Shown: positions 52,147 through 59,704, counted from the first letter of the stretch. The stretch: 64,000 bases of DNA from a virus (IMGVR_UViG_3300047160_017115:23879-87878), one strand, 5' to 3'. Notes: generated by a model not told the origin, from the letters alone. A program made the numbers and translations.

Positions 52147-52962
52147 ATGTCACACAAGTACAAGATCGGGTTCGTGTGCCCCACCTATTCCCAGTTCCCC
52201 TACGCGGAACGGGCGATCTCGACCTTCCTCGAGTACACGCCCGGCGGGCTCGCCATCGTCGTCGACGACGCCAGCCCGGACTGGGACGACAAGGACTGGC
52301 AGTCATTCCTCTATATTGAGCCGGTGGGCGTCCTCCGTGCCGTGGTCAATCGCTTCGAGCAGAACGGTGGCCTCACGCGCTCCTGGAACGCCGGCCTGAG
52401 CATTGCCCGCGTCTACGATTGTGAGTACGCGATCGCCGGCAACTCCGACGTCATCTTCGGGGCGCGTTGGTACGAGGGTTTGCTCGATGCTCTGAATGCC
52501 GGTTACCACCTCGTGGGGCCGGTCTCGAACGCCCCGGGGATCACGGCCAAGGGTTACGCCGAGGTCTGGCGGTACGACAGCACCTATGCGACGACGGACG
52601 ACCAGGAGTACATCGACAACCTCTCGTGCTCTCTTCGGGAGCGCTACCCGACCTCGATCGTCGAGGCGCCGGTCAACGGCTTCTTCCAGATGGCCCGCGT
52701 CGCCGACTGGTGGTCGGGGGCTTACGACGCCAAGGCGGGCCAGGTCTACAAGCCGAGCAACGAGTTCACGTCCGAGGGGCGCAGGAACCCGACCCCGCTC
52801 ATGACGCTCAACGAGGACGAGCTCCAGGGCCGGTGGGCCAAGCTCGGCCGCAAGACCGCTGTCGTGCCGTCGAGTTTCATCTTCCACTACCGGGCGGTGA
52901 CCAGGGGCCCGAAGTACCTCAGGGGTCGCTGGTTTAGGCCGGCGCCCGGGAGCAAGCCGTGA
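52147..52962 (+). CDS. Glycosyltransferase family 2
   Basis: IGFVCPTY; IVVDDAS; NGGLTRSWNAGL; AGNSDV; EDE; FIFHY. Confidence 0.85.
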   Translation: MSHKYKIGFVCPTYSQFPYAERAISTFLEYTPGGLAIVVDDASPDWDDKDWQSFLYIEPVGVLRAVVNRFEQNGGLTRSWNAGLSIARVYDCEYAIAGNSDVIFGARWYEGLLDALNAGYHLVGPVSNAPGITAKGYAEVWRYDSTYATTDDQEYIDNLSCSLRERYPTSIVEAPVNGFFQMARVADWWSGAYDAKAGQVYKPSNEFTSEGRRNPTPLMTLNEDELQGRWAKLGRKTAVVPSSFIFHYRAVTRGPKYLRGRWFRPAPGSKP

Positions 52963-53633
52963 CGAACATCGTGATCTACACGGCGATCACGGGCCGTATC
53001 TCCGACGAACTCCGTGTCCCCACGGGTGACGGGACCAGGCCGGCGCCCGGTGTGCGGTGGGTCTGCTTCACCGACCGTGAGAAGTACGGGACGCGGTACG
53101 GGCCCTGGGTGGTCCACAAGCCAGTGTGGACGCACCCCAGCGTGCCGCGCCGCACGGCACGGTGGCACAAGGCCAGCGCCCACACCCTGTTCCCCGACGC
53201 CGACGTCTCGCTCTGGTGTGACGGTTGCTTCCAGCTTCACGTCTACCCTCTCGATCTCGTTGCGTACCTCAAGGACACGGACGTCGCCACCTTCTATCAC
53301 CCCGATCGTGATTGCATCTACGACGAGGAGGTCGCTTGCCGGCGTCTGAAAAAGGACTTCCCGGAAGTCATGGCCGCCCAGACGGCCCGCTACCGGGCGG
53401 AGAACTACCCGCCTCACAACGGCCTGGCGGAGACGACCTGTGTACTCCGCCGCCACACCCCGCAAGTGGCTGAGCTCAATACACTCTGGTGGTCCGAGAT
53501 GGACCGCGGCAGCCTGCGTGACCAGCTCAGTTTCGATTACTGTTGCTGGAAGCTCGGGATGCGGTACTCGAAGGTCGGGGGCTGTCGCGGACAGAACCCG
53601 TACTTCCGTTTCTACCCCCACCGCGAACTATGA
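52959..53633 (+). CDS. DUF616-like glycosyltransferase
   Basis: VIYTAITG; VCFTD; ARWHK...LFPD..VSLWCDG; HPDRDCIYDE; RDQLSF. Confidence 0.75.
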   Translation: MTNIVIYTAITGRISDELRVPTGDGTRPAPGVRWVCFTDREKYGTRYGPWVVHKPVWTHPSVPRRTARWHKASAHTLFPDADVSLWCDGCFQLHVYPLDLVAYLKDTDVATFYHPDRDCIYDEEVACRRLKKDFPEVMAAQTARYRAENYPPHNGLAETTCVLRRHTPQVAELNTLWWSEMDRGSLRDQLSFDYCCWKLGMRYSKVGGCRGQNPYFRFYPHREL

Positions 53634-54685
53634 CGGCCGTCGGCATTTACGCCCCCTACCGCCTGTGTGAGCAGACCGACGCCGCGCTCACGCTGGCGGA
53701 GACGGCGCTGTCCTTTGGGCTCGAGCCCCGGCTGGCGTCCGACGAGCCCGTCGTGCGGGGGGTGAACCCGCCTTGGGACACAAAGGTCCGGCGGCTGCGT
53801 TCCATGGACGACGTGGTCCAGTGGGCGCGTGGCTGCGACCGCTTCGTGTGGTTCGTCCCCTCGCGCTCCGACCTGTCGCGCGTAAAGGGCGTGTGCCCTG
53901 ACGCCCAGCACATCCTCGTCCCGTCGTGGCACCGGCTCGACGAGGGGAAACTGAACGATTACGAGGCGTACCGGGACGTCGTCGTCCCGTCTCGCGCCGC
54001 CCAGACCCACTTTCAGAAGTGGACCGAGATCCGCAAACTCGCGGGGCGCAGGACCATCAAGCTCTGTCACTGGGACTCGGGAGTGATCGCCGTCCCGCGC
54101 GCGACCGCCGATCAGAACGCGCCGCCGCGCCTCCTCGTCCATGCCGATGCCTCGGCCGTGGACGACCTCGGGGCCGGCCTCATCGCTTGCATCGAGGGCC
54201 TCTTCGACAGGGTCCCAGACCTGCAGGTCACGCTTTACCGGGAGAAGACCTGGCCGATCGGGGTCTACCGTCAGGCCGCCAACCTGGCGCACGACACCGG
54301 GGGCCGCTTGACCCTGACCAGTGGCGACAGGCTCGAGCTCCTCGACTGTCTCCCGCGCCACGACTGGGCTTTCGTGCCTTCGACACGTGTCGACTTCGGT
54401 ACGGCGATCCTGCGGGCCGAGGCCTGTGGGGTGCCGACCGTGACCTACGACGTGCCGCCGGCCAGTGAGGTGCTGTGCCACTCGGGCCTGTCGTTGTCCT
54501 GTGAGCTCGTCGAGAACTGGTTCGGCGCCCCTGTCGCCGTGCCGTTCGCCTGTGCCGCGGTGCCCGCCCTGGCACAGCGGATCATGTCGCCGCCGCGGTT
54601 ACCGGCCAACTGGGCCGTCGACAGGCTGGAGGCGCGACGGTCGGCGTTCCGCAGGTTCTGGTCACAGCAGTGGGACATCCTCTGA
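53630..54685 (+). CDS. GT-B/GT4-like glycosyltransferase
   Basis: FVPSTRVDFGTAILRAEACGVPTVTYD resembles the GT4 'P.S..E.FG...lEA.A.G.Pvi' motif (acidic residues altered); ATGA coupling. Confidence 0.65.
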   Translation: MTAVGIYAPYRLCEQTDAALTLAETALSFGLEPRLASDEPVVRGVNPPWDTKVRRLRSMDDVVQWARGCDRFVWFVPSRSDLSRVKGVCPDAQHILVPSWHRLDEGKLNDYEAYRDVVVPSRAAQTHFQKWTEIRKLAGRRTIKLCHWDSGVIAVPRATADQNAPPRLLVHADASAVDDLGAGLIACIEGLFDRVPDLQVTLYREKTWPIGVYRQAANLAHDTGGRLTLTSGDRLELLDCLPRHDWAFVPSTRVDFGTAILRAEACGVPTVTYDVPPASEVLCHSGLSLSCELVENWFGAPVAVPFACAAVPALAQRIMSPPRLPANWAVDRLEARRSAFRRFWSQQWDIL

Positions 54686-54728: not shown

Positions 54729-54762
54729 ACCACGCCGTCCCGGGGGCTTCGTACCCGGAGAC
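54729..54762 (+). repeat. Dispersed 34-bp hairpin element, copy 8
   Basis: ACCACGCCGTCCCGGGGGCTTCGTACCCGGAGAC. Confidence 0.9.
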
Positions 54763-54806: not shown

Positions 54807-55142
54807 GTGATTCCTCGCCAACAGTCTCACATTCCCGATATCTTCACCCACGTCGACAACGTCTACACCGAGGAGTGCCGCAAGTGCGGGGTCACACCCA
54901 ACCGTGCCGGCCTCCTCAAGTTCGCCCACGCGTATCTCGACCGCCACCGCCCCGTCGAGATGTTCGCCGCCGACGCCAACTTCGGCGCCGTCCTCAACAA
55001 CAACTTCCGAGTCCTCCTCTGCCCGCAGGCGGACACGCACGCCGGCGACGTCAACACCGGCGGCTCCGTCGCCGTTACCTCGGGTGGAGGTCCCGTGTAC
55101 GACCACAACTACCGGGACCCGAACGCGATTCCCGTGACGTGA
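54807..55142 (+). CDS. Hypothetical protein
   Basis: 111-aa ORF. Confidence 0.55.
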   Translation: MIPRQQSHIPDIFTHVDNVYTEECRKCGVTPNRAGLLKFAHAYLDRHRPVEMFAADANFGAVLNNNFRVLLCPQADTHAGDVNTGGSVAVTSGGGPVYDHNYRDPNAIPVT

Positions 55143-55150
55143 GGTGACCT

Positions 55151-55255
55151 GTGGACACGATCCTGAAGTGGCTCTACGACACTTTTATCTTCGTCGTCTT
55201 CGAGACCTACAAACTCATGATCCGCATCAAGCAGTTCTTCGCCGGCACCGACTAA
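55151..55255 (+). CDS. Putative 34-aa hydrophobic peptide
   Basis: Manual translation (M)DTILKWLYDTFIFVVFETYKLMIRIKQFFAGTD; GAGGTG RBS. Confidence 0.45.
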   Translation: MDTILKWLYDTFIFVVFETYKLMIRIKQFFAGTD

Positions 55256-55274
55256 CCGTTTCCGAGTACGCACC

Positions 55275-56045
55275 ATGGAATTCGAAAACCCGGAGCAGCC
55301 CGAAGACCTTATCGTCGTCTCCCAGGTCGAGATCGCGCGCGTCCTGAGCGTGCTCTTCTCCGACTTCAAGGAGGCGACGCAGGAAGAGCCGGACGAATCG
55401 CAACTCAACAGCCTGCCTGCTTTCGTTGAGTGGTTCGTCTGCAACGAGTTCCTCTTTGACGACGACGAGATCGCTGACAGGGCCAGGTCCTCCCCCGAGC
55501 TCGTCGGTCGCATCAAGGGCACGCTACTCGGCCCTAACGCCGTGCCGCGCTTCATCGGCGTCTGGACGCGCGTCGTGCTCTCGGGGCGCAAGCCCCCGCG
55601 GCACGTGGTCAAATCCGTGCTGGCCGTCGTTCTCGTGAACTACGAGGACGGTACCTTGGTCCCCCTCCTGGCGCGGGTGCCGGGGCTGGGCGACCCTGAG
55701 GACGACTGGTCCGACGCGTCGCTCGTGGACGTTACCTTGAAGGCGGCTGAGACTATCACCAAGGGTCTTTTCGACCACGGCGTGGACGGCCTCTACGACT
55801 TTGGCGCCGGCGCGACTATCGACATGCGCTTGTGGGAGGCGTTCGAGCAGGCGATAGCCCGCCTGATCCAGTCGCCGCTCCTGCCGGTGGAGGCTCGTGA
55901 CGCGTTCGCATCCTATCTCGCTCTCGCGAGCTTGATTCTGGACCCGGACCCGAGCCTCCCGCCCGAAATGCTCAAGGAGCTTGCCGAGGCGGAGCTCGCC
56001 CGTTCCGCTAGGCATTTGCGTGAGGCGAAAACACGCCGTTCCTGA
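55275..56045 (+). CDS. Hypothetical protein
   Basis: 256-aa acidic ORF. Confidence 0.65.
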   Translation: MEFENPEQPEDLIVVSQVEIARVLSVLFSDFKEATQEEPDESQLNSLPAFVEWFVCNEFLFDDDEIADRARSSPELVGRIKGTLLGPNAVPRFIGVWTRVVLSGRKPPRHVVKSVLAVVLVNYEDGTLVPLLARVPGLGDPEDDWSDASLVDVTLKAAETITKGLFDHGVDGLYDFGAGATIDMRLWEAFEQAIARLIQSPLLPVEARDAFASYLALASLILDPDPSLPPEMLKELAEAELARSARHLREAKTRRS

Positions 56046-56067
56046 CCTCAGTGCGGAGTTGTCAGTT

Positions 56068-56652
56068 ATGAAAGAGTACGACCCCAACTATCGGGTCGCC
56101 GTTGTCACGGGGACGACTATGTTCGACCCCCGGTCTCACTATTCCATGGCACCGGTGGAAGGGACCTGCTGCGTGGTTCCCCTCGCCCCGTACTACCCGC
56201 CCGGCGCCGGTGAAGACGCGTGCCTCTTTCGGTCTCTTAACGAGAGCGACGTGTGCGTGTATCACGAGGTCCACGTCGGCAACCCGGACGAGCTGGTGGC
56301 GTTGTACCGTGAGTCCGTCTTGAAGATTCACAGGATGCTGTTAAGCGGCCCCGGGGGCACGCGTCCCTTCGCTGACGGCATTTCGCTCGAGGGCATCGGG
56401 AAGACGCGCGTCGATCCTGAGCTCTCCGCCGGTCCTCACCGCGAGCGGGAACGTGTAACAGGCGCCCCCTACAAGCAGGACTACCTGACGCGCAGCCGCC
56501 TCCGCGCCCTCGTCGCGCAGTGGACTCACGACAACCACGACGAGAACCGGCTTGACGAGGTGTCGTGTGTCGACGCGCTGATCGAGGCCTTGCAGGTCTA
56601 CCGTGACGACCGGCCCGATGAGCGGATCGGTTTGAATCAGTTACGGCGCTAG
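56068..56652 (+). CDS. Hypothetical protein
   Basis: ATG 56068 with GGAG RBS within track ORF 55981..56652. Confidence 0.55.
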   Translation: MKEYDPNYRVAVVTGTTMFDPRSHYSMAPVEGTCCVVPLAPYYPPGAGEDACLFRSLNESDVCVYHEVHVGNPDELVALYRESVLKIHRMLLSGPGGTRPFADGISLEGIGKTRVDPELSAGPHRERERVTGAPYKQDYLTRSRLRALVAQWTHDNHDENRLDEVSCVDALIEALQVYRDDRPDERIGLNQLRR

Positions 56653-56775
56653 ATCGACGGCAGATAGACGAGACGAGTTTCTAGACGATCGCGTCGTGCG
56701 AGCGACTTGTTGCTCGGGCGGCGCGTCGTTCGTTTCCTGCTTCGAGTTTGTCCTTCACCTTGAGGAAACCTCACC

Positions 56776-57720
56776 GTGGACGCTACGCCTGAGACCTTAT
56801 GCTCCATTGACCCGGAGCACCGCGTCCTCCTTTTGAGGACGAACGACGCCAACATGAGGAGCTTCGGCGGTTTCACCTGGCCTGAGTCTGGCTGGTGTGT
56901 GGCGCCGGATTGGGAGCCCAAGCCTAAGTGCGGCCACGGCCTCCACGGCCTCCTCTGGGGCGCAGGGAATTCTGTGCTTCTGGACTGGGACAAGACCGCC
57001 AAGTGGCTCGTCGTGGAAGCGGACGCCCGTGAGCTCGTAGATCTTGACGGCAAGGTCAAGGTGCCCAGGGGCCGCGTCGTCCATGTTGGCGACCAGGTGT
57101 CGGCTACCCAGTACCTCTACAACAACGACGGCCACTGCTCTTCGATCGTGGGCCTCTCGTTAACCGTGGGTCACGGCGTCAGGGTCGTGGGAGGCGCTCA
57201 ATCCGTGCTCACCGGAGGTCACGACGTCGTGCTCACCGGTGGTTTCGGGTCCCTGCTCGTCGGCGGTCATAGATCCGTGCTCACCGCCGGTAGTGATTCC
57301 GTGCTCAGCGGCGGCGAAGCCTCCAGACTCACCGGCGGAGAGTTTTGCCAGCTCACCGGTGGCTACGGCGCCGAGCTCAGCGCCGGCAGCAACGCCCGCC
57401 TCCTCGGCGGCGATGTCTCCGTGCTCACCGCCGGCAACTATTCCGTGCTCACCGGTGGGGTGTGCTCTGTGCTCACGGCGGGTCGTGACTCCAAACTCGT
57501 CGGCGGTCATAGCTCCAAGCTCACCGCCGGTAGGGATTCCGTGCTCATAGGCGATCGCCAGTCAACTTTCGCAGGTGGCGAGGGGTCCGTGTTCTCCTGT
57601 CGATGGCTCGACGATTCACGGTTACGGCTCGTTACGGCCTACGTGGGGGAGGATGGGATCGAGCCTGATCGCCCCTATCATTTTGCGGGTGGTGCATTCC
57701 ACCTCGTTGATCGGTCATGA
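56776..57720 (+). CDS. Miniature ice-nucleation-protein (InaZ-family) homologue
   Basis: N-domain LLRT..ANM...G.TWP.SG...W...GL.GLLWGAG.S..L...A.W.V.E...VK.PR..VVHVGD..SA; about 17 octapeptides (SVLTAG/GG type); C-domain SVF..RW.D..R.R.V.A..GEDGIEPDRPY. Matches recalled InaZ N- and C-terminal sequences. Confidence 0.8.
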   Translation: MDATPETLCSIDPEHRVLLLRTNDANMRSFGGFTWPESGWCVAPDWEPKPKCGHGLHGLLWGAGNSVLLDWDKTAKWLVVEADARELVDLDGKVKVPRGRVVHVGDQVSATQYLYNNDGHCSSIVGLSLTVGHGVRVVGGAQSVLTGGHDVVLTGGFGSLLVGGHRSVLTAGSDSVLSGGEASRLTGGEFCQLTGGYGAELSAGSNARLLGGDVSVLTAGNYSVLTGGVCSVLTAGRDSKLVGGHSSKLTAGRDSVLIGDRQSTFAGGEGSVFSCRWLDDSRLRLVTAYVGEDGIEPDRPYHFAGGAFHLVDRS

Positions 57721-57737
57721 TGCCGAAGGAGTCTCAA

Positions 57738-59174
57738 ATGGCTTACGACCTGGTGGGTCGTGTCGAGTCGCTCGGCACGCCCAAGGTTCTCGTGATCGGG
57801 GACATCATCCTCGATCGGTACATCTGGGGCGACGTCGAGCGCGTCAGCCCCGAGGCCCCCGTGCCCGTGTTCGTCCCCTACAAGACGGAGGACCGTCTCG
57901 GCGGGGCGGGGGCCGTTGCCGCCATGCTCGCGACGCTCGGCGCCGAAGTGACTCTCCAGGGCCTCGCCGGTATCGATGAGACCGCTTTCGTCGTTGGGAC
58001 CCTTGCCAAAGACCTTGGAATCAGTCGTCGCGTGTACCGCGAAGAGGGTCGTCCGACCACGGTCAAGGAGCGCTACGTGGGGCGCTCTCATGGGAAGCAC
58101 GTGCAGCAGCTCTTGCGTGTCGATCGCGAGTCATGCAAGGGGCCCGAAGCATTCACTCAAAGGTTTCTCAAAGAGACCCTCACGTCCGCTTGTTCGCATA
58201 AGTGGGACGCCATCCTGGTCTCCGACTACGGCAAGGGCGTCTGTACCCAAGACACTGTGCGCGCGGCCGTCGAGTACGGACGTGAGCGTGCCATCCCTGT
58301 AGTCGTGGACCCTTCGGCTAGCAAGGCGGTAGGTGCCTACTACGGGGCGACGGCCCTCACGCCTAACCGTCGTGAGGCCGCGCAGCTCTGTTGTGATGGC
58401 ATCCCTGTCGAGCGGCTATGGCAATACTCGTCCGTGGGGTGTGTCTTCACCACGCTCGACAAGGACGGGATCTCCGTTAGCCACAAAGGGGGCTACTCGG
58501 TCCTGCCTGCTCGACCCCGGGAGGTCTACGATGTCACGGGGGCGGGCGACATGGTCCTCGCTGTCATCGGCCTCTGTCTCGCGTCGGGCGCGAGCTACGA
58601 GGAGGCCGCGGCCCTCGCCAACGTGGCGGGCGGCCTCTCCGTCGAACGGTTCGGCGCGGCCCTGCTCACCAGGCAGGAGCTCGTCGACGACATCCGTGCC
58701 GCGAGCCCTTCCCAGGACCCGAAGTTGTTCAGCCTCTCGTCTCTCGTGGGGGAGGTCGCTCATCGCCGCGCTCTTGGCCAGACGATCGTCATGACCAACG
58801 GGTGCTTTGATTGTCTGCACCCCGGTCACCTGCACCTTCTCACATACGCCAAAGACGAGGATACATATCTCATCGTCGCCGTGAACTCCGACGACAGCGT
58901 GCGGAGACTCAAGGGGGAGAGACGGCCCATCCAGCCGCTGGCTGAGAGGGTGAAGGCCCTCACGGGGTTGCGCTGCGTCGACGCCGTCATCGTCTTCAAG
59001 GAAGACACGCCGTTGGCGTTGATCCAGGAGTTCAGACCCGACGTCCTGGTGAAGGGCGACGACTACACCATGGACCAGGTGGTCGGTCGTGACAGCGTCC
59101 TGGACGCTGGAGGTAAAGTGGTCCTCGTGCCTCGGCTCCCGGGTTACTGCACCAGTCGGCTCCTGCGAACCTGA
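57738..59174 (+). CDS. hldE: Bifunctional heptose-7-phosphate kinase / heptose-1-phosphate adenylyltransferase
   Basis: IGDIILDRY.WG.VERVSPEAPVPV; SDYGKG; TPNRRE; YDVTGAGD; TNGCFDCLHPGH; NSDDSVRRLKG..RP; VKGDDY. AAGGAG RBS. Confidence 0.95.
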   Translation: MAYDLVGRVESLGTPKVLVIGDIILDRYIWGDVERVSPEAPVPVFVPYKTEDRLGGAGAVAAMLATLGAEVTLQGLAGIDETAFVVGTLAKDLGISRRVYREEGRPTTVKERYVGRSHGKHVQQLLRVDRESCKGPEAFTQRFLKETLTSACSHKWDAILVSDYGKGVCTQDTVRAAVEYGRERAIPVVVDPSASKAVGAYYGATALTPNRREAAQLCCDGIPVERLWQYSSVGCVFTTLDKDGISVSHKGGYSVLPARPREVYDVTGAGDMVLAVIGLCLASGASYEEAAALANVAGGLSVERFGAALLTRQELVDDIRAASPSQDPKLFSLSSLVGEVAHRRALGQTIVMTNGCFDCLHPGHLHLLTYAKDEDTYLIVAVNSDDSVRRLKGERRPIQPLAERVKALTGLRCVDAVIVFKEDTPLALIQEFRPDVLVKGDDYTMDQVVGRDSVLDAGGKVVLVPRLPGYCTSRLLRT

Positions 59175-59492: not shown

Positions 59493-59508
59493 CGTCGTTT
59501 CCCGAAAG

Positions 59509-59578
59509 TAGCGGCGGGGGGAATCGAACCCCCGAGACCAGGGTTATGAGCCCTAGTGAGGTACCAACCTTCACCGCG
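59509..59578 (-). tRNA. tRNA-fMet(CAT), short D-arm, no encoded CCA
   Basis: CGCGGTG...TAGGG-CTCATAA-CCCTG...GGGGG-TTCGATT-CCCCC-CGCCGCT-A; C1:U72 mismatch and three G:C anticodon-stem pairs are initiator hallmarks. Confidence 0.85.
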
Positions 59579-59589
59579 TTTGTATCATC

Positions 59590-59623
59590 GTCATGCCGCC
59601 CCGGGGGCTTCATACCCGGAGAA
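59590..59623 (+). repeat. Dispersed 34-bp hairpin element, copy 9
   Basis: GTCATGCCGCCCCGGGGGCTTCATACCCGGAGAA, 11 nt from the tRNA 5' end. Confidence 0.9.
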
Positions 59624-59704
59624 ACCGCGCCTTTAGCCTACCCGAGTGTGGTGTCGCCGTCGAGGCCCCAGGGCATAGACTGGAGGCCGGGAAAGGAGGC
59701 AGGG

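What the first reader, a model, noticed from the sequence alone, without database searches (positions are those of the whole stretch)
56776..57720. Phage-borne miniature ice-nucleation-protein homologue with all three InaZ domains
Seen: N-domain, about 17 octapeptide repeats (24-nt period) and C-domain in 314 aa. Knowledge, from recalled InaZ sequence: N-terminal LRT..NM...G..WP.SG...GL.GLLWGAG.S...VK.PR..VVHVGD and C-terminal GENG.E.D.PY match closely. Bacterial INPs have far more repeats and regular TxT water-organising motifs, whereas these repeats are xLT/xLV with few TxT. Inference: a short beta-solenoid that may bind ice (antifreeze-like) rather than nucleate it, or an ancestral phage protein from which INPs expanded. 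The gene is fused by ATGA-type overlap to the hldE ORF.
Basis: partly seen in the sequence, partly recalled or inferred. Interest (0 to 1): 0.85.

Follow-up and report, generated by a model that had tools for sequence, protein, structure and literature searches.

The report
Phage mini ice-nucleation-protein homologue
This phage gene encodes a small but genuine relative of bacterial ice-nucleation proteins (same head, same kind of repeat rod, same end cap). It belongs to a very large, uncharacterised phage family, lacks the ice-organising surface, and most likely has nothing to do with ice.

Summary
ORF 56776-57720 (+, GTG start, 314 aa) has three parts, each of which aligns with real ice-nucleation proteins (INPs) fetched from Pseudomonas and Xanthomonas genomes:
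- Head alone: 44% identity over 101 aa, E 2e-25. Profile-profile comparison gives 100% probability, E 1.5e-39.
- Rod: 19 octapeptides in one unbroken register.
- C-terminal cap alone: 41% over 37 aa, E 8e-9.

It is not a one-off. It belongs to the Bbp36 ("VR2") / Pfam DUF7666 / PHROG 18079 family, which has at least 1292 clusters (at 50% identity) with E <= 1e-30, almost all 200-400 aa and mostly viral. One member, Burkholderia phage Mica gp48, is already labelled "ice nucleation protein" in GenBank. This scan has reported the family before on other DNA.

The rod has no TxT or GYGS water-organising motifs, only 9.5 coils and no linker, so ice nucleation is very unlikely and ice binding is unsupported.

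INP heads form one tight clade beside far more diverse phage heads. That fits an INP origin from this family but does not prove it, because the tree is unrooted.

The head shares a predicted fold and a CxxGLH motif with phage RIIB proteins, but the profile-profile test is not significant.

The ATGA overlap with an HldE-like gene is real. The linkage is absent from 79 related viral loci.

Function remains unknown. The best guess is a non-structural phage-host interaction protein.

The parts
56762..56766 (+). Shine-Dalgarno-like GAGGA, 9 nt before the GTG start
   Evidence: Read directly.
56776..57720 (+). Mini-INP gene (314 aa plus stop), member of the Bbp36/DUF7666/PHROG 18079 family
   Evidence: PHROG 18079 E 4.3e-41. 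119 near-length homologues. Profile census of 1292 clusters at E <= 1e-30.
56815..57141 (+). Globular head, residues 14-122. It matches Pfam DUF7666 and is homologous to the INP N-terminal globular domain. It keeps the phage-invariant CGxGLHG motif (C52, H57).
   Evidence: Pfam DUF7666 27.4 bits against a cut-off of 27. BLASTP to the INP head E 2e-25. hhalign 100%, E 1.5e-39. AF2 pLDDT 94. RIIB-like fold in BFVD at E 1e-4 to 2e-2, TMq 0.58-0.68.
57145..57600 (+). Rod, residues 124-275. It has 19 octapeptides (about 9.5 sixteen-residue coils) and is predicted as a beta-solenoid. There is no TxT and no GYGS motif, and the net charge is near neutral.
   Evidence: AF2 gives one short strand every 8 residues with pLDDT about 98. 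Colinear with the last INP coils, E 7e-28 and 6e-28. pI 6.4. Generic solenoid matches, best 3p4g_A Z 12.8.
57601..57717 (+). C-terminal cap, residues 276-314, homologous to the INP C-terminal cap (RW..D..R.R.V..YVGEDGIEPD.PY)
   Evidence: BLASTP of the cap alone against the INP cap E 8e-9. Family-wide conserved cap consensus. AF2 beta-hairpin cap with pLDDT 93-98.
57717..59174 (+). HldE-like bifunctional heptose-7-P kinase / heptose-1-P adenylyltransferase. Its start overlaps the mini-INP stop (ATGA). It is a neighbour and has not been shown to be a functional partner.
   Evidence: NF008454 385 bits, below the 521 cut-off; both domain models also below their cut-offs. (PfkB and CTP_transf_like). 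Overlap read. No HldE near 79 related loci.
54729..54762 (+). Upstream copy of a dispersed hairpin element (CCCGGGGGCTTCRTACCCGG) that brackets the gene block 54807-59174
Evidence: Read directly. The second copy at 59590-59625 was read.

Best explanation
The gene encodes a soluble accessory phage protein of the Bbp36/DUF7666 family, probably non-structural. It is a true short homologue of bacterial ice-nucleation proteins.

Anatomy (shown):
- A 110-residue globular head of the INP N-domain type.
- Joined directly, with no linker, to a capped beta-solenoid rod of 19 octapeptides (about 9.5 coils).
- The rod resembles the non-water-organising C-terminal coils of INPs.
- It ends in the INP-type cap.

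Mechanism (inferred):
- The highly conserved head has an RIIB-like predicted fold and an invariant CxxGLH motif. It binds a host or membrane-associated target.
- The rod is a rigid surface whose length and outward residues change freely among relatives. It acts as a spacer or as a recognition or self-association surface.
- The protein acts inside the infected cell in phage-host conflict or takeover, not in the virion and not on ice.

I put family membership and INP homology at about 0.97 and the proposed mode of action at about 0.45. INPs of Pseudomonas, Xanthomonas and Pantoea are most simply read as one offshoot of this family that gained a linker and a long array of TxT/GYGS coils.
For: Homology:
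- head 44% identity, E 2e-25; last coils plus cap E 7e-28 and 6e-28; cap alone E 8e-9.
- hhalign 100%, E 1.5e-39.
- an HMM built only from phage heads scores 36 INP N-termini at 90-106 bits.
- in three INP-bearing genomes the only hit of that profile is the start of the INP gene.

Family:
- Searches show a huge family, mostly viral, 200-400 aa.

Structure:
- pLDDT 95.6, pTM 0.90, monomeric solenoid.
- head alone pLDDT 94.2.

No ice surface:
- 0 TxT.
- PF00818 scores only 14 bits.
- Per PMC10727499, INP monomers are inconsequential nucleators and need the water-organising coils plus multimerisation.

Soluble:
- maximum 19-residue hydropathy 1.26.
- The N-terminus is acidic, which does not look like a signal peptide (my reading of the sequence; no predictor was run).

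Non-structural context in relatives:
- BPP-1, Mica and D14O carry the gene in the cI / replication region.
- The commonest neighbour in 79 viral loci is a CI-like repressor (21 loci); helicase, sigma factor and DNA methyltransferase also occur.
- bbp36 is non-essential, according to PMC2884959 citing Liu et al. 2004.

Head and RIIB:
- many RIIB proteins at E 1e-4 to 2e-2, TMq 0.58-0.68.
- the CxxGLH motifs co-align.

Variable rod surface:
- 144 of 263 members have at least 5 TxT, and 63 have at most 1.
- The closest relative, P0002, has 12.
Against: - No experiment bears on function.
- The RIIB link rests on predicted structures. The profile-profile test is not significant (7.7% probability).
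- In this phage the local neighbours are glycosyltransferases, unknown ORFs and an HldE-like gene rather than a repressor, so 'early region' is not shown here.
- Several large nearby ORFs have no family hit, so a structural module nearby cannot be excluded.
- The rod is near neutral (pI 6.4), unlike the basic INP R-coils (pI 9.7). INP-style electrostatic assembly therefore cannot simply be transferred.
- The DNA repeats here are diverged, so length hypervariability of the VR2 kind is not evident in this copy.
Confidence: 0.6

Rival explanations
1. Ice-active protein: a short solenoid that binds ice (antifreeze or recrystallisation inhibitor) or nucleates it after assembling into arrays. This would help the phage or its host in freezing habitats.
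For: True homology to INPs. The best structural match of the rod is a bacterial beta-helical antifreeze protein, 3p4g_A, Z 12.8, rmsd 3.4 over 180 residues. Many family members carry regular TxT ladders. According to PMC9418140, a six-repeat INP fragment was reported to bind ice.
Against: This copy has 0 TxT and no GYGS or Tyr ladder. PF00818 scores 14 bits against a cut-off of 27. Z 12.8 for a repeat protein is within the range of generic solenoid matches, with curli, adhesins and RTX close behind. Relatives live in phages of Bordetella bronchiseptica, B. cenocepacia and P. aeruginosa. The outward residues differ even in the closest relative. INP activity needs long water-organising arrays and multimers (PMC10727499).
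Confidence: 0.05
2. Glycosylated envelope or surface protein. The Ser/Thr-rich solenoid would be modified with heptose or other sugars made by the co-transcribed HldE-like enzyme and the upstream glycosyltransferases, as autotransporters AIDA-I and TibA are heptosylated. It would change the cell surface (superinfection exclusion or lysogenic conversion).
For: ATGA translational coupling to the HldE-like gene. Three glycosyltransferase-like genes lie at 52147-54685. The block is bracketed by the same hairpin element. Hyper-glycosylated TibA is among the solenoid matches (4q1q_B, Z 10.0). The INP N-domain is needed for leaving the cytoplasm, according to work cited in PMC9418140.
Against: None of 79 related viral loci has a homologue of this HldE or of these glycosyltransferases within 6 kb. 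The protein has no hydrophobic segment and an acidic N-terminus that does not look like a signal peptide (my reading; no predictor run). No GT9 or autotransporter-heptosyltransferase family was detected among the neighbours. The TibA match is one of many generic ones.
Confidence: 0.1
3. Self-assembling intracellular fibre or scaffold. As in INPs, the capped C-terminal coils would drive end-to-end or side-by-side multimerisation, building a structure in the infected cell.
For: The rod and cap align best with the INP C-terminal coils and cap, the parts shown to be essential for INP multimer formation (PMC10727499). The coil count (9.5) is close to the conserved 10-12 R-coils.
Against: The rod is near neutral, not basic. 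The acidic water-organising coils that R-coils are proposed to bind are absent. Repeat number varies widely in the family. No oligomer prediction could be run.
Confidence: 0.15
4. Virion needle or fibre: the octapeptides form an intertwined trimeric beta-helix like T4 gp5 or VgrG.
For: An 8-residue period as in gp5. Weak sequence matches to the gp5 C-terminal helix (E 0.086-0.4), to PHROG 27932 (E 0.0075), and to PF06715 in relative P0002.
Against: The matches are not significant. AF2 gives a confident monomeric two-strand-per-coil solenoid with its own cap. In annotated phages the gene sits among regulatory and replication genes. bbp36 is dispensable. The Atlas labels a related cluster 'phage non-structural protein'.
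Confidence: 0.04

Closest known systems
Bbp36 of Bordetella phages BPP-1, BMP-1 and BIP-1 (carrier of 'variable region 2', VR2); Pfam DUF7666 (+DUF4774); PHROG 18079
   Same: The same three-part architecture. tblastn gives 30-32% identity over 91% of the query. Bbp36 has DUF7666 plus octapeptide repeats. PHROG 18079 matches at E 4e-41. Function is unknown and bbp36 is non-essential.
   Different: VR2 is a near-perfect 24-bp array whose copy number differs between isolates (9-20). Here the DNA repeats are diverged (64-69% matches). Bbp36 lies just downstream of cI, whereas this gene is coupled to an HldE-like gene.
Bacterial ice-nucleation proteins (InaZ/InaK/InaV of Pseudomonas syringae, PbINP, InaX of Xanthomonas, InaA of Pantoea)
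   Same: Homologous head (44% identity, E 2e-25; hhalign E 1.5e-39), homologous last coils and homologous C-terminal cap, all in the same order.
   Different: 314 aa against 1050-1614 aa. It has no flexible linker, no GYGSTxTA water-organising coils and no Tyr ladder, and the rod is not basic. The phage-invariant Cys and His of CGxGLHG are replaced in INPs (ENGL[VT]G). It is carried by a phage, not a chromosome. The Pfam DUF7666 model does not reach INPs at E <= 0.1.
Burkholderia phage Mica gp48, annotated 'ice nucleation protein'
   Same: A family member: 40% identity over the head, with DUF7666. The depositors already noted a BLASTP match to Pantoea INP Q47879 at E 4e-10.
   Different: 219 aa with a shorter rod. 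It lies in a ParB / helicase / regulator region.
C-terminal conserved domain of phage RIIB proteins (T4 rIIB, 'protector from prophage-induced early lysis')
   Same: The predicted head fold matches RIIB models from many phages (Foldseek E 1e-4 to 2e-2, TMq 0.58-0.68). The invariant C-x-x-G-L-H motifs co-align.
   Different: The sequence profile comparison is not significant (7.7% probability, E 0.0045 pairwise). For INP heads against RIIB it is 1.7%. RIIB has an N-terminal HTH-like region and no solenoid.
Beta-solenoid antifreeze proteins (e.g. Marinomonas primoryensis MpAFP region IV, 3p4g)
   Same: A narrow beta-solenoid rod: Z 12.8, rmsd 3.4 over 180 residues.
   Different: 12% identity and no Ca-binding or Thr/Asx ice-binding rows. 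Equally good matches go to designed solenoids, curli and adhesins, so this is a common arrangement, not kinship.

Membership tests
Bacterial ice-nucleation protein (InaZ type) | Conserved ~110-residue N-terminal globular domain | tested here: met
   BLASTP 44% over 101 aa, E 2e-25. hhalign 100%, E 1.5e-39.
Bacterial ice-nucleation protein (InaZ type) | Long central array (about 40-80) of 16-residue water-organising coils with GYGSTxTA / TxT and a Tyr ladder (Pfam PF00818) | tested here: not met
   PF00818 scores 14.1 bits against a cut-off of 27, whereas real INPs score 1096-1374 bits. There are 0 TxT, a single GYG, and 9.5 coils in all.
Bacterial ice-nucleation protein (InaZ type) | Flexible linker between head and solenoid | tested here: not met
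   The head's last helix (residues 107-119) runs straight into the first coil at residue 124, with pLDDT at least 97. INPs have 60-100 extra residues here.
Bacterial ice-nucleation protein (InaZ type) | 10-12 basic R-coils next to the cap | tested here: inconclusive
   The rod aligns best with this part (E 7e-28 and 6e-28) and has a similar length. However, it has 9 K+R against 10 D+E and pI 6.4, compared with pI 9.7 in the INP.
Bacterial ice-nucleation protein (InaZ type) | Conserved C-terminal cap | tested here: met
   Cap alone: 41% over 37 aa, E 8e-9.
Bacterial ice-nucleation protein (InaZ type) | Ice nucleation activity | not testable with these tools
   Needs droplet-freezing assays.
Bbp36 / DUF7666 / PHROG 18079 phage family | DUF7666 head with invariant F, W, G, D, CGxGLHG, W, KxK | tested here: met
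   PF24703 scores 27.4 bits against a cut-off of 27. All invariant columns of the 47-sequence alignment are present in the window protein. The phage-head profile scores 157 bits (E 1e-47) on the window's own genome.
Bbp36 / DUF7666 / PHROG 18079 phage family | Uninterrupted octapeptide array directly after the head, then a W.D...R...YVGEDGIEP cap | tested here: met
   PHROG 18079 E 4.3e-41. tblastn to Bbp36 over 91% of the length.
Bbp36 / DUF7666 / PHROG 18079 phage family | Near-identical 24-bp DNA units (VR2-like, copy number unstable) | tested here: not met
   TRF finds only 4.7 and 2.5 copies at 69% and 64% matches. This is a trait of some members, not of the family as a whole.
Bbp36 / DUF7666 / PHROG 18079 phage family | Non-structural (regulatory or replication) genome neighbourhood | tested here: inconclusive
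   This holds in BPP-1, Mica, D14O and many viral loci. Here the neighbours are glycosyltransferases, unknown ORFs and an HldE-like gene.
T4 gp5 / VgrG needle repeat | Significant match to the gp5 C-terminal repeat; trimeric intertwined helix | tested here: inconclusive
   PDB sequence matches at E 0.086-0.9. AF2 gives a monomeric solenoid.
RIIB C-terminal domain | Sequence or fold homology to the conserved RIIB core | tested here: inconclusive
   Foldseek E 1e-4 to 2e-2, TMq 0.58-0.68 to many RIIB models. hhalign probability 7.7%.

The most novel reading that the evidence does not exclude
Bacterial ice-nucleation proteins arose from a phage gene of this Bbp36/DUF7666 family. One capture into a gammaproteobacterial chromosome was followed by insertion of a linker, loss of the head's Cys/His motif and massive expansion of TxT/GYGS coils. 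The INP 'membrane-anchor' head would then be a member of a wider phage domain class shared with RIIB. That would give both the INP N-domain and RIIB their first structural and functional context.
Probability: 0.4. Interest if true: 0.65.

Novelty: new member of a known kind. Interest (0 to 1): 0.45.

Why it matters
The two key INP structure-function papers read here state that no structural homologues of the INP end domains were found (PMC9418140). One of them never mentions phages (PMC10727499).

This gene and its thousand-plus relatives are natural 'minimal INPs': head, a few coils and the cap. They offer two things:
- An evolutionary source for a protein important in frost damage and possibly in atmospheric ice formation.
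- Small, confidently foldable models for the head and cap.

For phage biology, they mark a very common accessory gene of unknown role.

For this particular window the gain is modest. It is one more member of a family already in Pfam, PHROGs and GenBank. Its only special trait is the translational coupling to an HldE-like gene.

Tried and rejected
- Word-indexed searches for longer relatives found no INPs. I attribute this to the index and the E-value scale of a 5.8-billion-sequence database, because direct comparison is decisive.
- The profile search of 1.84 billion representatives listed only short family members in its top 150.
- Foldseek against the PDB gave nothing at E <= 0.001.
- The PDB sequence search gave only weak gp5/VgrG matches. 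The head profile against PDB sequences gave nothing.
- NCBIfam and PADLOC gave no hit for the protein.
- The head against the PDB by VIA-align reached at best Z 5.3. About 30 of the top 50 rows are ADP-ribosyltransferase-fold proteins, which is too weak to claim.
- hhalign of the head against T4 RIIB alone and against a 10-sequence RIIB alignment gave 1% and 7.7% probability. INP heads against RIIB gave 1.7%.
- The HldE and glycosyltransferase linkage was looked for in 79 viral loci and not found.
- No sigma-70-like promoter was found around the gene.
- A sample of 401 Pseudomonadota genomes gave only one non-INP hit. That does not measure prophage frequency well.
- The look-up of encoding contigs had no record of the closest relative P0002.
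- The original Bbp36 paper (Liu et al. 2004) is not held. It is cited only through PMC2884959.

Full report
**The feature**

The ORF at 56776-57720 on the + strand is real. It has a GTG start, 314 codons and a GAGGA motif 9 nt upstream. Residues 124-275 fall into 19 consecutive octapeptides with no register break. The consensus is G-x-x-S-x-L-T-[G/A]. At the DNA level the 24-nt period has decayed: TRF reports only two short arrays with 64-69% matches. The stop codon overlaps the ATG of the next gene (TCATGATG).

That next gene matches both HldE domain models and the full-length HldE model, but below their curated cut-offs (385 against 521 bits). I therefore call it HldE-like.

The window is part of an IMG/VR virus record of 87,878 bp, which CheckV estimates as 39% complete. 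Upstream lie an SbcC-like protein, two helicases, a DNA polymerase and a UvsX-like recombinase. Almost all genes are on the + strand.

**Is it related to ice-nucleation proteins?**

The curated repeat model says little (PF00818, 14 bits). The word-indexed searches for long relatives found nothing. I therefore fetched genuine INP genes by scanning bacterial genomes for two consecutive AGYGST...AGYGST repeats. This gave 64 loci, nearly all Pseudomonas, Xanthomonas and Pantoea. From them I extracted complete genes of 873-1614 aa.

BLASTP against a P. syringae INP gives two colinear matches:
- Head to head, running on into the first coils (E 1e-30).
- Last coils plus cap to last coils plus cap (residues 129-302 against 1056-1245, E 7e-28). 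A Xanthomonas INP gives 6e-28 for the same region.

With the biased repeats removed:
- The head alone is 44% identical over 101 residues (E 2e-25).
- The cap alone is 41% identical over 37 residues (E 8e-9).

Profile tests agree:
- An alignment of 47 phage heads compared with 8 INP heads gives hhalign probability 100%, E 1.5e-39 over 106 columns.
- An HMM built from phage heads only scores 36 INP N-termini at 90-106 bits.
- In three whole INP-bearing genomes its single hit is the start of the INP gene.

**What family is it?**

- PHROG 18079 (function unknown) matches at E 4e-41.
- Pfam DUF7666 covers the head, just above its threshold.
- A word-indexed search found 119 relatives of similar length.
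- A full HMMER search of 1.84 billion representatives found 1292 clusters at E <= 1e-30 and 2885 at E <= 1e-10. The top 150 are all 200-530 aa.
- IMG/VR holds at least 244 confirmed loci.
- The protein atlas labels the nearest clusters as mostly viral.

Cultured members:
- Bbp36 of Bordetella phages BPP-1, BMP-1 and BIP-1. Its repeat array is the annotated 'variable region 2'.
- A Pseudomonas aeruginosa phage gene mis-named fliK.
- Burkholderia phage Mica gp48. Its depositors already called it 'ice nucleation protein' on a BLASTP match to Pantoea INP.

According to PMC2884959, citing Liu et al. 2004, VR2 has 9-20 copies of a 24-bp unit depending on the isolate, does not affect tropism, and bbp36 is not essential.

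This scan has also reported the family on other DNA with similar conclusions. I treated those notes as leads and re-tested what I use.

**Structure**

With the family alignment, AlphaFold2 gives pLDDT 95.6 and pTM 0.90. The model shows:
- A mixed alpha/beta head (strands, then a helix at residues 107-119).
- A solenoid that follows immediately, with one short strand per octapeptide, i.e. two per 16-residue coil.
- A beta-hairpin cap.

Foldseek finds nothing in the PDB. The exhaustive aligner finds only generic solenoids for residues 106-314. The best is the Marinomonas antifreeze protein 3p4g (Z 12.8, rmsd 3.4, 180 residues), closely followed by a designed solenoid, curli, adhesins and RTX blocks. 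The tool's own note says such values are common for repeats.

The head modelled alone (pLDDT 94.2) has no convincing PDB match. The best Z is 5.3, and ADP-ribosyltransferase-fold proteins are strikingly frequent among the weak rows.

Against predicted viral structures, the head matches RIIB proteins of many unrelated phages (E 1e-4 to 2e-2, TMq 0.58-0.68). An alignment of ten RIIB proteins has an invariant C-x-x-G-L-H in its conserved C-terminal core. hhalign pairs this with the invariant CGxGLHG of the phage heads, but only at 7.7% probability. I regard the RIIB link as a fold-level lead and nothing firmer.

INP heads have lost that Cys and His (ENGL[VT]G).

**Ice?**

In INP models the outward rows are the TxT and SxL[T] positions. 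Here the matching positions are mostly V/R/K and T/V/S, and there is no TxT at all. There is no Tyr ladder, no linker, and only 9.5 coils.

PMC10727499 shows three relevant points:
- INP activity depends on long water-organising arrays plus multimerisation through 10-12 basic R-coils and the cap.
- A monomer is inconsequential as a nucleator.
- Activity is lost below about six R-coils.

The rod here resembles those last coils in sequence pattern and length, but it is near neutral (pI 6.4 against 9.7).

Across 263 family members, 144 have at least five TxT and 63 have none or one. The closest relative (58% identity) has twelve. The outward surface is therefore not conserved even between near relatives. 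That argues against any fixed ligand such as ice for the rod. Hosts of cultured members are not cold specialists.

**Context**

In BPP-1, Mica and D14O the gene lies among repressor, recombination and replication genes. In 79 viral loci the most frequent neighbour is a CI-like repressor just upstream (21 loci). Others are helicase, sigma factor and DNA methyltransferase.

None of those loci contains a homologue of this window's HldE-like gene or of its three glycosyltransferase-like genes within 6 kb (GT). The coupling to hldE is therefore specific to this lineage.

Here the block 54807-59174 is bracketed by two copies of a dispersed hairpin element, so the genes may form one transcription unit. 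That alone does not show a shared function.

The protein has no hydrophobic segment, and its acidic N-terminus does not look like a signal peptide (my reading; no predictor was run).

**Evolution**

In a tree of 171 phage heads and 10 diverse INP heads, the INPs are one clade (SH-aLRT 100) on a stem of 0.86. The median within-INP path is 0.82, against 2.2 among phage heads. Midpoint rooting nests INPs eight nodes deep, but those nodes are weak.

Three observations are best explained by INPs being one expanded offshoot of the phage family:
- INPs are restricted to a few gammaproteobacterial genera.
- The short form is rare in sampled bacterial chromosomes: one non-INP hit in 401 genomes.
- The short form is very diverse.

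The root is not determined, and fast viral evolution could inflate phage diversity.

**Verdict**

The ice-binding idea has no support, and the gene is a new member of a known, large but functionally blank phage family.

My working model is a head that binds a host or membrane-associated target, joined to a capped, freely variable rod, acting in phage-host conflict. It is an inference from conservation pattern, context and the RIIB resemblance.

Noticed in passing
window 52147-54685 and 57717-59174: A sugar-modification set in a phage. It comprises a GT2-like gene (52147-52962), a TOD1/MUCI70-like glycosyltransferase (52959-53633), a GT1/GT4-like gene (53543-54685) and a divergent bifunctional HldE-like gene. 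All HldE models score below their curated cut-offs. No GmhA or GmhB was looked for.
   Followed up: partly
window 54729-54762 and 59590-59625: Two co-oriented copies of a hairpin element (core CCCGGGGGCTTCRTACCCGG) bracket the block that holds the mini-INP and HldE-like genes.
   Followed up: partly
window 59508-59578 (- strand): A tRNA-Met (CAT) gene on the minus strand just downstream of the HldE-like gene, in a genome where nearly all genes are on the + strand.
   Followed up: no
alignments A2, A3, A4 (P0001 residues 52-57): The phage heads have an invariant Cys and His (CGxGLHG). RIIB proteins have an invariant C-x-x-G-L-H in their conserved core. INP heads have replaced both residues (ENGL[VT]G). 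This could be a shared binding or catalytic site lost in INPs.
   Followed up: partly
head model m8e772568156d (window 56815-57141): About 30 of the 50 best, though weak (Z 3-5.3), PDB matches of the head are ADP-ribosyltransferase-fold proteins: the Rhs toxins TreTu and TreX, Arr, PARPs, Tpt1, and diphtheria and pertussis toxins. This is too weak to claim, but the enrichment is odd.
   Followed up: no
viral loci L068, L071, L072, L075, L078, L087, L088, L090, L095 and others: Many IMG/VR contigs end inside or right at the mini-INP gene. This suggests that its repeat array often breaks assemblies, or that it lies near genome ends.
   Followed up: no
L074/L079 (one contig) and L082/L104 (one contig): Some phage contigs carry two family members several kb apart. 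Within-locus paralogues also appear in the neighbour clustering.
   Followed up: no
L014, L015, L029, L040, L065: INP-type repeats occur on very short contigs of assemblies labelled Streptomyces hayashii (three contigs of 649-2428 bp) and Sulfitobacter sp. CW3 (274 bp, coverage 0.75), and on a 297-bp Pseudomonas sp. 286 contig. The first two look like contamination by ice-nucleating bacteria rather than true occurrence.
   Followed up: no
L148 (Pantoea ananatis LMG 2665, G003:C2:68221-68541): The INP head is followed by an open frame of only 356 aa in this assembly, against 1266 and 1617 aa in the other two genomes. This may be a broken or mis-assembled INP gene.
   Followed up: no
Pfam PF24703 against INPs L025 and L061: The Pfam DUF7666 model does not detect INP N-termini at E <= 0.1, although a profile built here from phage heads scores them at 90-106 bits. 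The database therefore does not record that DUF7666 is the INP N-domain.
   Followed up: yes
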